A stretch of 64,000 nt of DNA from the human T2T-CHM13v2.0 reference genome, Homo sapiens (GCF_009914755.1 NC_060941.1); one strand, 5' to 3'; positions 49,578 to 61,401 are shown, counted from the first letter of the stretch. Notes: generated from the letters alone by a model not told the origin. Program-made: numbers and translations.

Positions 49578-49640
49578 CAGCCAATAAGAGGCCCAGGCCC
49601 CGCCCCACCCTTTTGCGGGTGTGCTTCTGTGTATAAAGGT
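49578..49640 (+). promoter_or_regulatory. Canonical Pol II core promoter of the CP2-like pseudogene
   Basis: agCCAATaag (CCAAT 49581-49585), GC/CACCC box ggccccgccccaccc 49596-49610, TATAAA 49632-49637, ATG at 49723. Confidence 0.7.
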
Positions 49641-49722
49641 AGAGGCCCCAGGTGAGGGGCCAGTGGGTGCAGCCCAACCCCACGCTGAGCTGTTTCACAG
49701 CCGGCCCTGCCCCCTCTCCAAG

Positions 49723-49805
49723 ATGCTGTTTTGGCACAACCAGCCGGAGCATCTATGGCCCAGTCCTGGGGACCTATACCCTGGGCCCCCCAGCAGCCTG
49801 CTCAG
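49723..49805 (+). pseudogene. CP2-like exon 1
   Basis: MLFWHNQPEHLWPSPGDLYPGPPSSLL(R)|gtaagg; TFCP2L1 begins MLFWHTQPEH. Confidence 0.9.
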
Positions 49806-50287
49806 GTAAGGGCTGGATCCCCCAGGTCCCGGGGAAAGTGCTGGTCTGAAGTTGGAGTGGACATCATCCATTTCAAGCTGAGGGAAGTGGGGCTCCCATT
49901 CCCGGGCTCCTCTGGAGATGGGGAAGTGGTCAAATGTACCTGGAGTTCAGTGTGTCCTGGGACATCTCAAAAACACCCTGATCCCACTTAGGACATTTTT
50001 GTTGGGAATTTACTCAGTATCAGGCAAGCTTTGAGGTTGCAAAGACAAGTAATTGATGGCAGCTGTTGAGTAGAACAGCCACAAATCTGAGATCAGCACC
50101 TTCAGGGAGGCCTCCTGGAGGCCTGAGGAGCTGAATGGGGGTCCCTTTGGCCCTGGCTGCAGCTTGGGGACCTGCTACAGGAAACTGTGGGTTCCCCAGA
50201 GGGAAGGTCTGGCATAGAGAGTCAAAGACCTTTAGAAAAGGGGATGGACAGGGCAGAAAGCTGGCAGAGCCCTCCTCTTCCTGGCAG

Positions 50288-50439
50288 GGAGCCCCTGCCC
50301 TTGCCCTACTTGAAGCAGGAGGAGCTGCCCAACATCCCTGGCACGGAGCTGCCCTGCCCCATGTTCTAGTACGTGCTCTGTGCAGCCACCTCGCCAGCCG
50401 TGAAGCAGCAGGAGGAGACCCTCACCTACCTGAACCAGG
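50288..50439 (+). pseudogene. CP2-like exon 2 (nonsense codon)
   Basis: [49 protein letters not shown](G); TAG at 50367-50369 where paralogs have Q; 152 nt. Confidence 0.93.
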
Positions 50440-50573
50440 GTATGCTAGGCCTGGGAGAGGGGAGGAGCTAGTGGGCAGTGAGCTCGGGAAGCTGGGCTCA
50501 GGGTGAGCTGGAGGTGGTAGGTGCCACTCTGCCCCTCAGAGTGGGGCTCACGCAACCCCTTAATCCCTCCCAC

Positions 50574-50647
50574 GCCAGTCCTATGAGGTCCGGATGCTCT
50601 GCAGCTCCAAGCCGTGTGATGCCACCCAGTGCCCCCAGCTGCTGAAG
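50574..50647 (+). pseudogene. CP2-like exon 3 (acceptor lost)
   Basis: (G)QSYEVRMLCSSKPCDATQCPQLLK|gtgggt; preceded by cccAC instead of AG. Confidence 0.85.
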
Positions 50648-51681
50648 GTGGGTACACTCCTCCCCGGAAGTGGCAAAGGCTGGGTATGACTGTTTCTCTG
50701 GGCAAGAAGCCAATGTCATCACAGTGATATCATCGTCACGGAGAACCCTCTCACGTCCGTCATTTAATTGGACCCTCACAACAGCTCCGTGGTGGGCAAG
50801 AATTGAAGAAACAGGCACAGAGAAGTTAAGTGTTTTCTCAAGGACACAGAGCCAGCAAGTAGCAGAACTGAGATTTAGAAACACATTTACACAGTGTAGG
50901 CTGGCCACAGTGGCTCACGCCTGTAATCCCAGCACTTTGGGAGGCTGAGGCGGGCGCATCACCTGAGGTCAGGAGTTCAAGACCAGCCATGGTGAAACCC
51001 CGTCTCTACTAAAAATGCAAAAATTACCTGGGCATGGTGGTGCACACCTGTAATCCCAGGTACTCGGGAGGCTGAGGCATGAGAATGGCTTGAACCCAGG
51101 AAGCAGAGGGTGCAGTGAGCAAAGATCGCACCACTACACTCCAGCCTGAGCAACAAAGCAGACTCTGTCTCAAAAAAATAATAATAATAAAAATAAAATT
51201 AGAAATATATTTACACAGTGTTATTCACACACATGACCTTTTCTCAAAAAATTACCTATTTAGCCCCCATTCTATGCCAGAAAATGTTCCATGAGCTAGG
51301 GATTCATCAGTAATGAGACAGATGTGGCTCCCTTCCTCAGGAGGCTTGCATTCTACTAAGACAAACAAGTAATTACACATATTCTGTGAAATGACCAACA
51401 GTGACATGTTGCAAAGAAATGGGTGGCGTGCCTAGGGTGGGAAGGCATTAACTCCCCCTTTTTACAGATGAGGAAACTGAGGCTCAGGGTCTCTAGATTA
51501 CTTCTCTGGTTCACAGTCGTGAGTGGCAGATGGGCATTTGAACACGCATTGGTGATTCTAAGTCCTAATGCCTCCTGGGGTAGGAAGGGAGGTGTGGGAA
51601 GGTCAGCCTACACAGGTGTGAAAACTGGGTCCTCAATGCTGGCGTCCTCTGACTGTGCGCCACGCCCTCCTGTGGCTGCAG

Positions 51682-51791
51682 AGTGTGGTGCAGGTGATGT
51701 TCCACGACCCGCACCTGCAGTACACAGAGCAGCAGCGGCAGCTGGCTGGGTGGAGGTGGAGCCGGGCCCAGGGACCGCATCCTGGACATCG
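51682..51791 (+). pseudogene. CP2-like exon 4 (+1 frameshift, donor lost)
   Basis: SVVQVMFHDPHLQYTEQQRQLAGWRWSR/fs/PRDRILDI(D)|ATgagt. Confidence 0.9.
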
Positions 51792-58598: not shown

Positions 58599-59391
58599 GT
58601 GAGGTTCTGGCCTCTCTCTCCAGAACATAGGAAATTCAGGTGTAGCTGCATGAAACCTCTCCCTAGAAGAGGAATGGTGATACCCCACCATTCCTGGGAC
58701 CCAGGATGCCCTTCTTGGCATTTCCCTACCTTCCATGACCAGATTAGTCCCTCTCCTTCCAGAATGTCTCCTTGGGTTTATTCACCATGTTCTACTCCTC
58801 CACCCCACCTGATCGTCACTGCATTAGCATATGGGATTAGAACATCATCTTGTTATGTACTTGGGTCCCAGTCACTAATATGTGGGTGTCCTATGTCTTT
58901 AAACTGGGGGTTCCCCTCAGACACCTCCCAAAAGATGAGGGATGAGAGGTGAAGTAGACTTTTTTCCTTTTTTTTTTTTTTTGAGACGGAGTCTCACTCT
59001 GTTGCCCAGGCTGGAGTGCAGTGGCGCGATCTCAGCTCACTGCAACTTCTGCCACCCAGGTTCAAGAGATTCTCCTGCCTCAGCCTCCCAAGTAGTTGGG
59101 ATTACAGGAGCCTGCCACCATGCCCAGCTAATTTTTGTAGTTTTTAGTAGAGATGGGGTTTCACCATCTTGGCCAGGCTGGTCTTGAACTCCTGACCTCG
59201 TGATCCACCCCTCGGCCTCCCAAAGTGCTGGGATTACAGGCATGAGCCACCACACCCAGCCAACTTTTCCCTCTTTACTTCTCCTCCCCCCACCCCATAG
59301 CCATCTTCCTGGCACCCCTGGTTTCCTGTGGGCACATCTCTGGACTCCCTTCCCCTGCTGACCCCTGCCTCTGTGTTGCCCATGCCCCCAG

Positions 59392-59536
59392 ACTTTTATC
59401 AAGAGATCTCTCTGGATGAACTCAGTGCTGTAGAGCTGATGGGGAAACTGGCTGAGCTCTGGCCATCCCAGCCAATCAGATCCATCACCTTTTCCACCAG
59501 GGCACCGGGGGCATCTTCATTCTCCTCAGTGACCAG
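59392..59536 (+). pseudogene. CP2-like exon 13 (-1 frameshift, donor lost)
   Basis: FYQEISLDELSAVELMGKLAEL/fs/AIPANQIHHLFHQGTGGIFILLSDQ|ATaaag. Confidence 0.9.
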
Positions 59537-59682
59537 ATAAAGGGCAGCCATTTCCTGTCGCAAATCCCCACGGAGGCCTCGCTAACACTTCTGCCTCAGA
59601 TTAAGCTTTCTTTTCCATGGCATGGCTTGTTCTCTTTGGCTCTAATAACAAAATTGCCTTTGTGCCCGCTTCACTCTTACAG

Positions 59683-59734
59683 GTGGTCCAGAATTTTAAG
59701 GACGAATCATACTTTGTGGCTGTGGTGAAAAAAG
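59683..59734 (+). pseudogene. CP2-like exon 14 (donor lost)
   Basis: VVQNFKDESYFVAVVKK|GGattt; compare MVQNFQDESCFVLSTIK; 52 nt. Confidence 0.9.
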
Positions 59735-60961
59735 GGATTTTAGAGGCAGAGGAGTGTGCCTGGCTGGCCCTATAAAGGGGGATAAGAGTGTGCTGAGCAT
59801 ATATTCCGTCTCCTAAATGAGACTAAAAGGCTCTTTGGGGGCCAGGCGCAGTGGCTCATGCCTGTAATCCCAGCACTTTGGGAGGCTGAGGCAGGTGGAT
59901 CACTTGAGGACAGGAATTCAAAACCAGCCTGGCCAACATGGCAAAACCCCATCTCTATAAAAAATACAAAAAACTACCCGGGCGTGCTGGCACGTGCCCG
60001 TGGTCCCAGCTACTTGGGAGGCTGAGGCAGGAGAATCCCTTGAACCCAGGAGGCAGAGGTTGCAGTGAACCGAGATTGCCCCACTGCACTCCAGCCTGGC
60101 TGACAGAGCGAGTCTGTCTCAAACGTCTCAAAAACAAACAAACAAACAAAAAACCTCTTTGAAGGGGATTAAGGGGATGTGTCCCAATTAACTAGCAAAC
60201 ACCTGTGAATGCCAGCTTTGTGTCAAGGGGAGAGGGATTTGTATAGCTAAAAGATATTTATTGCTTAGGAAAAACATGACTGAATAAATGCATCCTCATT
60301 AAATAAAAAATGCTCCAGTTTCTGTTGTCAGGGAGTTTATTAGAGGGAAAGGTAAGGCCCCCACTTTTCTCCACCTGCCCCTGGCATGATACAAGGCAGA
60401 AGGGCAGGTGCTTCCTGGACATCATCTGGCATAGGGCACCTCTGACTAGTCTGCTTGGCATCTGGTTATTCAGATGTTTGCCTTCCACCCCTCCACATGC
60501 CAGAGCTGGTCAGCTTGGCTTATGTACACAAGGGGGTAGGAAGAGGTAGATGTGAAGTCGGGTTTTAAGACACGTGTGGCCGGGCGTGGTGGCTCACACC
60601 TGTAACCCCAGCACTTTGGGAGGCCGAGGTGGGCAGATCATGAGGTCAGGAGTTCAAGACCAGCCTGGCCAAAATGGTGGAACCCCATCTCTACTAAAAA
60701 TACAAAAATTAGCCAGGCGTGGTGGCGGGCACTTGTAATCCCAGCTCCTCGGGAGGCTGAGGCAGGAGAATCGCTGGAACCCGGGAGGTGGAGGTTGCAG
60801 TGAACTATCGTGCTACTGCACTCCAGCCTGGGTGACGAGCGAAACTTCACCTCAAAAAAAGAAATAAAACAAAAAAACACTTGGGTGTGCCAGACGCATT
60901 GTAGGCTGCTTGGAGGGTGAGGACCTGACTGGTCCTGCTGGTGCCTTTTTACTGCTTTCGG

Positions 60962-60999
60962 TGCAGAATCCAGATGGCTACTACTTGGTTCTGACCTAG
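60962..60999 (+). pseudogene. CP2-like exon 15, terminal (acceptor lost)
   Basis: tttttactgctttcGG|(V)[11 protein letters not shown]; compare AESNDGYHIILK. Confidence 0.82.
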
Positions 61000-61346
61000 G
61001 CCAGGGGAACTCCACTGCTCAAGAGACTGATAGCTTGTCTTCACCAGAAACCTTGTTAAAACACTTGGCTGACTCAACAGGCTCCAGGTGAGCCAAAGTA
61101 TCTTGCATCTCACCCCGAGAGGAGGCAAGTAGCCTCCAGCTTCACTTTTCTTTCTGGTCAGCAGCAATGGCTGTTGGAAGTCTTCCTTACCCATTCGTTC
61201 TTCTGAGCTGGCCAAGTTTATGAGGCAAAAAAAAAAAAAAAAAAAAAAAAAAAACTGGCAATGTGGAAAGAGCTTTTGCCATGAGCAGTGTTGGCTGGTG
61301 ATCACTGAGAGTGTTAATTCATTTAAAAAGTTTAAGCCCTTTTTAA

Positions 61347-61401
61347 ATTAAAAGTTAATTTTTAAAAGGTATATACACTTAATGTGTTGTCCAATGTGTT
61401 G
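61347..61401 (+). terminator. Candidate poly(A) signal of the CP2-like pseudogene
   Basis: ATTAAA 61347-61352 followed by GT-rich tgtgttgtccaatgtgttg; a second AATAAA at 61507-61512. Confidence 0.5.

What the first reader, a model, noticed from the sequence alone, without database searches (positions are those of the whole stretch)
49578..61401. Complete 15-exon dead CP2/LSF-family transcription factor gene (TFCP2L1-like), invisible in the ORF track
Seen: 15 plus-strand exons in order. They cover the N-terminus (MLFWHNQPEH), the CP2 DNA-binding domain ([70 protein letters not shown]), the SAM-like domain ([27 protein letters not shown]) and the C-terminus ([16 protein letters not shown]). Intron phases fit together, and exon sizes 152/107/94/91/52 equal those recalled for TFCP2L1. 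Known: humans have three intact members (TFCP2, UBP1, TFCP2L1). Inference: the many substitutions at positions shared by the paralogs, with introns retained, argue against a retrocopy or recent duplicate and for an old, independent gene. Repaired ORF about 481 aa.
Basis: partly seen in the sequence, partly recalled or inferred. Interest (0 to 1): 0.93.

Follow-up and report, generated by a model that had tools for sequence, protein, structure and literature searches.

The report
Dead fourth CP2 transcription factor gene
This stretch of human chromosome 17 is the broken remnant of a fourth CP2-type transcription factor gene that is still whole in most other land vertebrates, so humans have lost a regulator that many animals keep.

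Summary
Window 49723-60999 (+) carries all 15 exons of a CP2/LSF-subfamily gene, in order. Exon sizes and phases match human TFCP2, TFCP2L1 and UBP1. RefSeq already lists 10 of the exons as transcribed pseudogene LOC101929578.

The gene is dead in human:
- one TAG stop in exon 2;
- frameshifts in exons 4, 7 and 13;
- 7 conserved codons missing from exon 6;
- five splice sites that no longer read AG or GT.

It is not a copy of TFCP2L1: the AU test rejects that placement (p 6e-57). It is the human ortholog of a fourth clade with support 99/97. That clade has intact proteins of about 480 aa in many placentals, marsupials, platypus, reptiles, birds, amphibians, lungfish, a shark and a skate. Databases name these proteins "TFCP2L1" or "UBP1-like".

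An F-box/LRR gene lies tail to tail beside both this locus and UBP1, which fits an ancient large-scale duplication. No rodent, rabbit or Old World monkey protein appeared among the listed hits.

Seven full-text searches found no paper describing a fourth member. The locus is annotated; its reading as a unitary pseudogene of an overlooked paralog appears new. Interest is moderate.

The parts
49723..49805 (+). Exon 1, coding part (ATG at 49723). The RefSeq exon starts at 49662.
   Evidence: 23 of 28 residues identical to P0100. Donor GT present.
50288..50439 (+). Exon 2, 152 nt, with an in-frame TAG at 50367-50369 where all orthologs and paralogs have Q
   Evidence: 44 of 52 identical; the stop is reported by the alignment. 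DNA reads TTC TAG TAC. Size 152 with ag/gt in 3 of 3 paralogs.
50574..50647 (+). Exon 3, 74 nt as in the orthologs. The expected acceptor at 50572-50573 reads AC. RefSeq uses the next AG and starts at 50579, which is 5 nt short.
   Evidence: The paralogs have ag directly before the homologous G.CAGTC.
51682..51791 (+). Exon 4, 110 nt against 106 in the paralogs. It has one extra codon near 51736, one extra G near 51764-51766 (frameshift), and a donor that reads AT at 51792-51793. The exon is absent from NR_164152.1.
   Evidence: The paralog donor is ATCG|gtgagt and the size is 106 in 3 of 3.
51900..52006 (+). Exon 5, 107 nt, with no lesion
   Evidence: 31 of 36 identical. ag/gt present; size 107 in 3 of 3 paralogs.
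55114..55245 (+). Exon 6, 132 nt against 153 in the paralogs. The 7 codons for VHCISTE have no counterpart. The 30 nt upstream are a pyrimidine tract ending in CAG.
   Evidence: This exon alone scores 30.2 bits against Pfam CP2 (cut-off 25).
55820..55925 (+). Exon 7, 106 nt against 111. Five nt are missing after 55832, giving a frameshift.
   Evidence: DNA. The orthologs read PKGADRKLK. Size 111 with ag/gt in 3 of 3 paralogs.
56372..56469 (+). Exon 8, 98 nt, with no lesion
   Evidence: 25 of 33 identical. ag/gt present.
56698..56752 (+). Exon 9, 55 nt, with no lesion
   Evidence: 15 of 18 identical. ag/gt present.
57005..57098 (+). Exon 10, 94 nt, first half of the SAM-like domain
   Evidence: 25 of 32 identical. 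Size 94 in 3 of 3 paralogs. Pfam SAM_3 covers residues 314-372 of P0100.
57491..57581 (+). Exon 11, 91 nt, second half of the SAM-like domain. Donor GT is intact. The last RefSeq exon reads through to 57719, into a repeat.
   Evidence: 28 of 30 identical.. Repeat-like stretch at 57660-58132.
58516..58598 (+). Exon 12, 83 nt, with no lesion; not in RefSeq
   Evidence: 22 of 28 identical. ag/gt present.
59392..59536 (+). Exon 13, 145 nt against 146. One nt is missing near 59457 (frameshift). The donor reads AT at 59537-59538. Not in RefSeq.
   Evidence: 39 of 48 identical.. The paralog donor is gt in 3 of 3.
59683..59734 (+). Exon 14, 52 nt. The donor reads GG. Not in RefSeq.
   Evidence: 16 of 17 identical. 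Size 52 with ag/gt in 3 of 3 paralogs..
60962..60999 (+). Exon 15 with the stop TAG at 60997-60999. The acceptor reads GG at 60960-60961. Not in RefSeq.
   Evidence: 12 of 12 residues identical to the C-terminus of the 480-aa orthologs..

Best explanation
The locus is a unitary pseudogene: the human ortholog, decayed in place, of a fourth member of the CP2/LSF subfamily of Grainyhead/CP2 transcription factors.

Shown here:
- The ancestral gene had 15 coding exons. It encoded about 480 aa with a CP2 DNA-binding domain, a SAM-like domain and a C-terminal GRHL1_C domain.
- It forms its own clade beside TFCP2, TFCP2L1 and UBP1. Members occur from cartilaginous fish to mammals.
- In human it cannot give a full protein, for four reasons. 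A stop in exon 2 ends translation at codon 55. Exons 4, 7 and 13 are frameshifted. Seven invariant codons of the DNA-binding domain are gone. Five splice sites are lost.
- The locus is still transcribed: RefSeq holds a 10-exon non-coding RNA from it. The RNA's odd structure follows the lesions. Exon 4, whose donor reads AT, is skipped. Exon 3 starts at the next AG after the lost acceptor.

Inferred:
- The gene arose with its neighbour by the large-scale duplications at the base of vertebrates.
- It was lost before the human-orangutan split, perhaps with relaxed constraint already in stem anthropoids.
- It was lost independently in rodents and rabbits.
- In species that keep it, it works as a sequence-specific transcription factor like TFCP2.
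For: Anatomy. The 15 exons lie in order, with 394 of 482 template positions identical to P0100. Exon sizes and phases equal those of the three human paralogs, read on their DNA.

Lesions. TAG at 50367-50369; indels of +1, -5 and -1 nt; -21 nt in exon 6; five non-canonical splice sites.

Orthologs.
- Exon 6 finds 112 proteins among 116 candidates at 80-100% identity. Identity to the human paralogs for that exon is 56-66%.
- Proteins of 477-480 aa from lemur, colugo, cat and rhino end with the same 12 residues as the window; an elephant protein ends one residue short.
- Marsupial, platypus, sauropsid, amphibian, lungfish and cartilaginous-fish members appear.

Trees.
- Fourth clade 100/100, with human sister to Saimiri at 100/99 (careful tree, 42 rows).
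- Clade of 18 rows including skate and shark at 99/97, and lungfish at 100/99 (careful tree, 46 rows).
- Platypus contributes both a fourth-clade protein and a protein named UBP1. Gastrophryne has a TFCP2L1-clade row in the tree, plus a closer-scoring protein that was listed but not put in a tree.
- A clade with TFCP2L1 is rejected (p-AU 6.4e-57).

Only copy. The Pfam CP2 search of the human genome gives 16 matches at 7 loci (29 of 29 candidates scored). Six are the known genes and the seventh is this window.

Domains. CP2, SAM_3 and GRHL1_C in 4 of 4 orthologs scanned. The closest solved structure is the TFCP2 DNA-binding domain 8y7v, E 1.3e-102.

Relaxed constraint. Human differs at 24 of 260 positions that are invariant in 10 non-anthropoid mammals (9.2%). 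A leave-one-out baseline gives 1.4-3.5% for nine placentals. The human end branch is 0.15 against 0.064-0.098.

Neighbourhood.
- An LRR exon at chr3:33385703-33386050 (+) lies about 8 kb beyond UBP1 exon 14.
- Its best paralog is at chr17:40128075-40128314 (-), E 3.6e-33. This is inside the span the hub gives for FBXL20, about 15 kb beyond exon 15.
- Both gene pairs are tail to tail.
- Paralogs of CACNB1 and STAC2 also lie on chromosomes 12, 2 and 3.
Against: - No ortholog DNA was available. I inferred the direction of each lesion from ortholog proteins and from paralog DNA.
- I did not test that the 480-aa proteins of other species lie between STAC2 and FBXL20.
- Loss in rodents, rabbits and Old World monkeys rests only on absence. 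None is among the 112, 120 and 120 listed hits, although those lists do contain rodent and macaque UBP1.
- The two New World monkey models are odd. Saimiri lacks half of exon 4 and exons 14-15. Saguinus is garbled. So the time of death is open.
- Relations among the four clades and the lampreys are unresolved. The whole-genome-duplication origin is therefore inferred from neighbour genes, not from the tree.
- The one teleost sampled fell in the TFCP2L1 clade.
- Bird rows sit on a long branch and are misplaced.
- A role for the RNA is neither shown nor excluded.
Confidence: 0.93

Rival explanations
1. A recent segmental duplicate or a retrocopy of TFCP2L1 (or of TFCP2 or UBP1) that has since decayed.
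For: Database names of the relatives say 'TFCP2L1'. Exon sizes equal those of TFCP2L1.
Against: - Fourteen introns are retained, so it is not a retrocopy.
- Identity to each paralog is about 50-66% for most exons.
- The constrained tree is 385 log-likelihood units worse, p-AU 6.4e-57.
- Orthologs reach back to cartilaginous fish.
Confidence: 0.01
2. The gene still makes a working protein in people. This could happen through an intact allele absent from this assembly, through alternative splicing around the lesions, or as a shortened protein.
For: - The locus is transcribed (RefSeq NR_164152.1, hub table).
- One paper's table labels it 'protein-coding gene' (PMC4758788, passage seen).
- A partial human protein of 89 aa and orangutan models of 186-189 aa are in databases.
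Against: - At least ten independent lesions are spread over exons 2-15.
- The stop at codon 55 precedes the whole DNA-binding domain.
- Exon 4 and the VHCISTE strand, both identical in all four clades, are lost from the transcript.
- Orangutan models share the exon 6 gap, skip exon 7, and read through the exon 11 donor.
- No splice path restores the frame.
Confidence: 0.03
3. The pseudogene has been kept as a functional non-coding RNA. This does not exclude the best explanation.
For: - A spliced 10-exon RNA is curated by RefSeq (hub table).
- It is strongly raised in HER2-enriched breast cancer (table entry about 8.97, presumably log2 fold change, PMC4758788, passage seen).
Against: - The locus lies in 17q12 close to ERBB2 (recalled), so the rise may be passive co-amplification.
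- No Rfam family matches 49000-62000 (0 matches).
- Substitutions at once-invariant sites are three to four times the baseline, as expected for neutral decay.
Confidence: 0.08

Closest known systems
UBP1 (human chr3, CP2/LSF subfamily)
   Same: - Same 15-exon plan. Exon sizes 152, 106, 107, 153, 111, 94, 91 and 52 are shared.
- Same three domains.
- Same tail-to-tail F-box/LRR neighbour.
- With a salamander fourth-clade query, proteins named UBP1 are the commonest named non-clade hits further down the list.
   Different: - It is a separate clade.
- Identity is 52-65% for most exons and 83% for exon 2.
- Exon 3 is 77 nt, not 74.
- UBP1 is intact in human.
TFCP2L1 and TFCP2 (human chr2 and chr12)
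   Same: Same family, exon plan and domains. The solved TFCP2 DNA-binding domain 8y7v aligns to ortholog P0100 at E 1.3e-102.
   Different: The pseudogene is not nested in either. Holding it with TFCP2L1 is rejected. The name 'TFCP2L1' that databases give to the fourth-clade proteins is a misnomer: at least Gastrophryne has a separate protein in the true TFCP2L1 clade besides a closer-scoring hit that was not put in a tree.
RefSeq record LOC101929578 / NR_164152.1, 'transcription factor CP2-like', transcribed pseudogene
   Same: Same locus and strand. Ten of the 15 exons are shared (hub table).
   Different: - The record ends at 57719.
- It lacks exon 4 and exons 12-15.
- It does not say that the locus is the only human representative of a separate paralog with intact orthologs.
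Classical human unitary pseudogenes such as GULOP (recalled, not tested here)
   Same: A single-copy gene with introns, broken in place, with working orthologs in other mammals.
   Different: Here the lost gene is a transcription factor with three surviving paralogs. The mouse, usually the reference for finding such losses, appears to lack it too.

Membership tests
CP2/LSF subfamily of Grainyhead/CP2 transcription factors | CP2 DNA-binding domain (Pfam PF04516) | tested here: met
   Orthologs score E 2e-50 to 2e-54 in 4 of 4 scanned. Human exon 6 alone scores 30.2 bits, over the cut-off of 25.
CP2/LSF subfamily of Grainyhead/CP2 transcription factors | SAM-like domain, which separates LSF/CP2 from Grainyhead proteins (stated in PMC2873413, passage seen) | tested here: met
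   Pfam SAM_3 in 4 of 4 orthologs. Human exons 10 and 11 are 25 of 32 and 28 of 30 identical to P0100.
CP2/LSF subfamily of Grainyhead/CP2 transcription factors | Shared exon-intron plan with the three known members | tested here: met
   Sizes 152, 106, 107, 153, 111, 94, 91 and 52 with ag/gt in 3 of 3 paralog loci. The window matches them, or differs only by its indels.
CP2/LSF subfamily of Grainyhead/CP2 transcription factors | Open reading frame giving a full protein (functional membership in human) | tested here: not met
   One stop, three frameshifts, a 21-nt loss and five lost splice sites.
Unitary pseudogene | Disabled in place with introns kept, so not processed | tested here: met
   Fifteen exons are spread over 11.3 kb. 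Of the 28 splice sites, 23 are still canonical.
Unitary pseudogene | No working copy of the same ortholog group elsewhere in the genome | tested here: met
   The Pfam CP2 search of the whole assembly gives 7 loci. I take the other six to be GRHL1-3 (names recalled), UBP1, TFCP2 and TFCP2L1. The last three fall in other clades.
Unitary pseudogene | Intact orthologs in other species | tested here: met
   Proteins of 477-482 aa exist in lemur, colugo, tree shrew, cat, rhino, elephant, opossum and others. Their tree follows the species tree.
Unitary pseudogene | Orthologs lie at the same chromosomal position in other species | not testable with these tools
   No other vertebrate genome is held. 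Only contig lengths are given for the proteins.
Ortholog or recent duplicate of TFCP2L1 | Groups with TFCP2L1 in a tree | tested here: not met
   AU test p 6.4e-57 against it.
Ohnolog from the vertebrate genome duplications | Paralogous neighbour genes around the paralogs, and members in both cartilaginous and bony vertebrates | tested here: inconclusive
   For: the F-box/LRR neighbour pair; CACNB paralogs on chromosomes 12, 2 and 10 and a STAC paralog on chromosome 3; skate and shark in the clade. Open: branching order of the four clades, and the place of the lampreys.

The most novel reading that the evidence does not exclude
Jawed vertebrates have four, not three, CP2/LSF-type transcription factors. 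The fourth is intact from sharks to most mammals. I found no paper that characterizes it. It seems to have escaped study because it is dead in humans (and probably all apes, perhaps all anthropoids) and appears absent from rodents, and because databases label it 'TFCP2L1' or 'UBP1-like'. Work on CP2-family redundancy and heterodimers in cattle, pig, dog, chicken or Xenopus would then be missing a partner. The human and mouse lineages would each have dispensed with it independently.
Probability: 0.55. Interest if true: 0.65.

Novelty: new member of a known kind. Interest (0 to 1): 0.5.

Why it matters
- It corrects the count of a much-studied transcription factor subfamily. A 2018 review treats the subfamily as TFCP2, TFCP2L1 and UBP1 only (PMC6213935, passages seen).
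- It flags a systematic misnaming of the fourth paralog in well over a hundred annotated genomes. This can corrupt ortholog tables.
- It adds a transcription factor to the list of genes lost on the human lineage. Screens that use the mouse as reference would miss it, if the mouse indeed lacks it.
- For human genetics the locus is a transcribed relic. Its RNA rises in HER2-enriched breast tumours, most simply as a passenger of the 17q12 amplicon (inference).

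Tried and rejected
- a Pfam scan of window exon pieces failed, because one reference held stops. I did not repeat it. One search gave the domain evidence instead.
- the first comparisons with the paralog loci were drowned in Alu-derived matches. I replaced it with a mask built from blastn hit multiplicity.
- a DNA search with the chr3 flank returned only interspersed repeats.
- Pfam F-box-like found 50 matches, none at either locus.
- the neighbour question was finally answered. 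Of 122 open frames from the chr3 flank, one gave a weak F-box/LRR match, and that frame was then searched against the genome.
The gene lists of the unitary-pseudogene paper PMC2864566 could not be checked and may bear on the novelty claim.
- Literature. Searches found no paper on a fourth CP2 member or on this locus as a unitary pseudogene. The terms TFCP2L2 and TFCP2L3 gave only papers on GRHL genes; I recall them as old aliases of GRHL1/2. Term searches in the main texts of PMC2134963 and PMC2864566 gave 0 hits for CP2, Tfcp2 and Ubp1.
- A U12-type reading of the AT donors was considered and dropped. The partner acceptors are AG, and the paralogs have GT there.
- The alignment 'VSSPS-QFT' for exon 6 was set aside in favour of a 21-nt loss. 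The upstream 30 nt are a pyrimidine tract ending in CAG, and the exon is 132 nt against 153.

Full report
WHAT IS THERE

The window is human T2T chr17:40052001-40116000 (hub note; confirmed). RefSeq lists a 10-exon transcribed pseudogene here (LOC101929578, NR_164152.1). All its internal exon ends carry ag/gt.

A Pfam CP2 search of the whole assembly gave 16 matches at 7 loci, with 29 of 29 candidates scored. Three loci I take from memory to be GRHL1-3. The others are UBP1 on chr3, TFCP2 on chr12, TFCP2L1 on chr2, and window 55108-55254 (30.2 bits, cut-off 25).

COMPARISON WITH THE THREE HUMAN PARALOGS

I fetched the three paralog loci. After masking repeat-like stretches, open-frame pieces of the window chained in the same order along all three. 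Identity was about 50-66% for most exons and 83-92% for exon 2.

Exon sizes were read directly on paralog DNA, with ag/gt in 3 of 3 loci each:
- 152, 106, 107, 153, 111, 94 and 91;
- 77 for exon 3;
- 52 for exon 14.

They hold for all three paralogs, not TFCP2L1 alone.

INTACT ORTHOLOGS

A protein search with the 44 residues of exon 6 returned 112 proteins among 116 candidates at 80-100% identity. This is far above the 56-66% to the human paralogs for the same exon. Many are 477-500 aa predicted proteins of bats, carnivores, whales, ruminants, elephant, tenrec, lemurs, colugo and squirrel monkey. Their sources name them 'TFCP2L1', 'UBP1-like' or 'Grh/CP2 DB domain-containing protein'. Proteins from lemur, colugo, cat and rhino are 477-480 aa and end with the same 12 residues as the window's last exon; an elephant protein ends one residue short.

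A search with the colugo protein P0100 gave 2308 proteins at E ≤ 1e-20 among 8000 scored candidates, of which the best 120 are listed. These added marsupials (71-76% identity), platypus, crocodile, turtles, lizards, snakes, birds and salamanders. The sauropsid and amphibian proteins are only 53-71% identical to each of the four human loci. They are therefore not orthologs of TFCP2, TFCP2L1 or UBP1. A third search, with the axolotl protein, added caecilians, frogs including Xenopus, lungfish, tuatara, sharks and a skate. It also brought in named true UBP1 proteins for comparison.

ANATOMY AND LESIONS

I aligned P0100 to the window with a frameshift-aware method and read the DNA at every junction. 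The 15 exons are:

- e1: 49723-49805.
- e2: 50288-50439. TAG at 50367-50369 where every relative has Q.
- e3: 50574-50647. The acceptor reads AC. RefSeq uses the AG 5 nt further on.
- e4: 51682-51791. One extra codon and one extra G, giving a frameshift. The donor reads AT. The exon is skipped in the RefSeq RNA.
- e5: 51900-52006.
- e6: 55114-55245. It is 132 nt against 153. The 7 codons for VHCISTE have no counterpart.
- e7: 55820-55925. Five nt are missing, giving a frameshift.
- e8: 56372-56469.
- e9: 56698-56752.
- e10: 57005-57098.
- e11: 57491-57581. The donor is intact. RefSeq reads through to 57719, into a repeat.
- e12: 58516-58598.
- e13: 59392-59536. One nt is missing, giving a frameshift. 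The donor reads AT.
- e14: 59683-59734. The donor reads GG.
- e15: 60962-60999. The acceptor reads GG. The stop is TAG.

Twenty-three of the 28 splice sites are still canonical. The paralogs have ag or gt at four of the five places where the window does not; the exon 15 acceptor could not be located in the paralogs.

The exons sum to 1420 nt. Undoing the indels gives 1443 nt, which is 480 codons plus the stop.

The direction of each change is inferred from ortholog proteins and paralog DNA. No ortholog DNA was available.

PHYLOGENY

I read the pseudogene through with X at each break. I rebuilt partial proteins of the three human paralogs from their exons.

Careful tree of 42 rows. I had dropped nine long or compositionally odd unnamed rows from the 51. 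The result is a fourth clade of 25 rows at 100/100, with human sister to Saimiri at 100/99.

Careful tree of 46 rows with named sequences. The clade has 18 rows:
- skate and shark join at 99/97;
- lungfish joins at 100/99;
- amphibians, sauropsids, platypus, opossum and placentals follow roughly in species order.

UBP1 (81/99) and TFCP2L1 (100/99) form separate clades. Platypus has a protein in the fourth clade and one in the UBP1 clade. Gastrophryne has a row in the TFCP2L1 clade, plus a second protein that scores closer to the axolotl query but was not put in a tree.

Holding the pseudogene with TFCP2L1 costs 385 log-likelihood units, p-AU 6.4e-57.

Results against a tidy picture:
- the order of the four clades and the place of the lampreys are unresolved;
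- bird rows sit on a long branch and group with mammals;
- the one teleost sampled fell in the TFCP2L1 clade.

NEIGHBOURHOOD

I scanned 122 open frames from the chr3 flank beyond UBP1. One, at chr3:33385703-33386050 (+), gave a weak F-box/LRR match. Its best paralog in the genome is chr17:40128075-40128314 (-), with E 3.6e-33 and 69% identity. That place is inside the span the hub gives for FBXL20, about 15 kb beyond exon 15. The chr3 exon is about 8 kb beyond UBP1 exon 14. Both pairs are tail to tail. From memory, the chr3 gene is FBXL2.

A CACNB1 exon has paralogs on chr10, chr2 (152.3 Mb) and chr12 (48.8 Mb, 2.3 Mb from TFCP2). A STAC2 exon has one on chr3 (36.4 Mb, 3 Mb from UBP1). This fits an origin by large-scale duplication, but it is an inference.

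WHEN IT DIED

Orangutan predicted proteins (186-189 aa) share several features with the human locus and its RNA:
- they share the missing VHCISTE;
- they skip exon 7;
- they read through the exon 11 donor.

They are identical to human in 157 of 171 columns. So the gene was probably dead before the human-orangutan split. This is indirect, because these are gene models, not DNA.

Human differs at 24 of 260 comparable positions among the 274 that are invariant in ten non-anthropoid mammals (9.2%). A leave-one-out baseline gives 1.4-3.5% for nine placentals. The opossum, the outgroup of that set, gives 13.6%.

In exons 1-13, 6 derived states are shared by human and Saimiri, 11 are human only, 11 are Saimiri only, and 3 differ in both. 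The Saimiri model lacks half of exon 4 and exons 14-15, and the Saguinus model is garbled. Constraint may therefore have relaxed already in stem anthropoids. This is not shown.

No rodent, rabbit or Old World monkey protein of this clade is among the 112, 120 and 120 listed hits. Rodent and macaque UBP1 are listed.

WHAT IT DID AND DOES

Orthologs carry CP2, SAM_3 and GRHL1_C domains in 4 of 4 scanned. They align to the solved TFCP2 DNA-binding domain 8y7v at E 1.3e-102. In species that keep it, the gene most likely encodes a sequence-specific, oligomeric transcription factor like TFCP2. This is an inference.

In human the stop at codon 55 precedes the DNA-binding domain. The locus gives a spliced non-coding RNA whose structure follows the lesions. 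One paper lists it among the genes most raised in HER2-enriched breast cancer (PMC4758788, table passage seen). Since the locus lies in 17q12 near ERBB2 (recalled), passive co-amplification is the simplest reading. No Rfam family matches the region.

WHAT IS KNOWN

The locus is annotated, so its existence is not new. Seven full-text searches found no paper describing a fourth CP2-subfamily member or this locus as a unitary pseudogene.

I saw passages only of these papers:
- PMC2873413 and PMC3348937 have no mention of a pseudogene or of a fourth member.
- The review PMC6213935 treats the subfamily as three genes.
- The gene-loss papers PMC2134963 and PMC2864566 gave no hit for CP2, Tfcp2 or Ubp1 in their main texts.

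Their supplementary lists could not be opened, so a listing there cannot be excluded. Subscription journals are not covered.

VERDICT

- Observation: confirmed.
- Interpretation: supported, with the correction that the gene is a separate fourth paralog, not TFCP2L1-like.
- Novelty: a new member of a known kind, already present in databases under wrong names.
- Interest: moderate (0.5).

Noticed in passing
window 49165-49197: A (TG)n microsatellite of about 16 units lies roughly 500 bp upstream of the RefSeq transcript start.
   Followed up: no
window 61226-61253: An uninterrupted run of 28 A lies 230 bp after the stop codon. Candidate poly(A) signals are ATTAAA at 61347 and AATAAA at 61507.
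   Followed up: no
window 49300-50000: The CpG observed/expected ratio is only 0.18 around the first exon, so there is no CpG island at the 5' end of the dead gene.
   Followed up: no
window 57582-57719: The last RefSeq exon ignores an intact GT donor at 57582-57583. It ends inside a repeat-like stretch (57660-58132), so the RNA seems to use a repeat-borne end.
   Followed up: partly
proteins P0140, P0142, P0154 (birds): Bird members of the fourth clade sit on a long stem (0.24; end branch 0.38). They group with mammals instead of crocodile and turtle. This means either fast evolution in birds or a tree artefact.
   Followed up: no
proteins P0343, P0366 (lampreys): The two lamprey CP2-type proteins join none of the four jawed-vertebrate clades with support.
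   Followed up: no
proteins P0024 (Saimiri), P0112 (Saguinus): The New World monkey models look damaged. Saimiri lacks the first half of exon 4 and reads through the exon 13 donor. Saguinus has several stretches that match nothing. The gene may be decaying there too.
   Followed up: partly
G000 chr3:33385703-33386050 (locus L018:5703-6050, +): An F-box/LRR coding exon lies about 8 kb beyond UBP1 exon 14, on the opposite strand. Its closest paralog is inside FBXL20 on chr17.
   Followed up: yes
PMC4758788, table of differentially expressed genes: LOC101929578 is listed there as a 'protein-coding gene' with a value of about 8.97 (presumably log2 fold change), up in HER2-enriched breast cancer. 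The label is outdated.
   Followed up: partly
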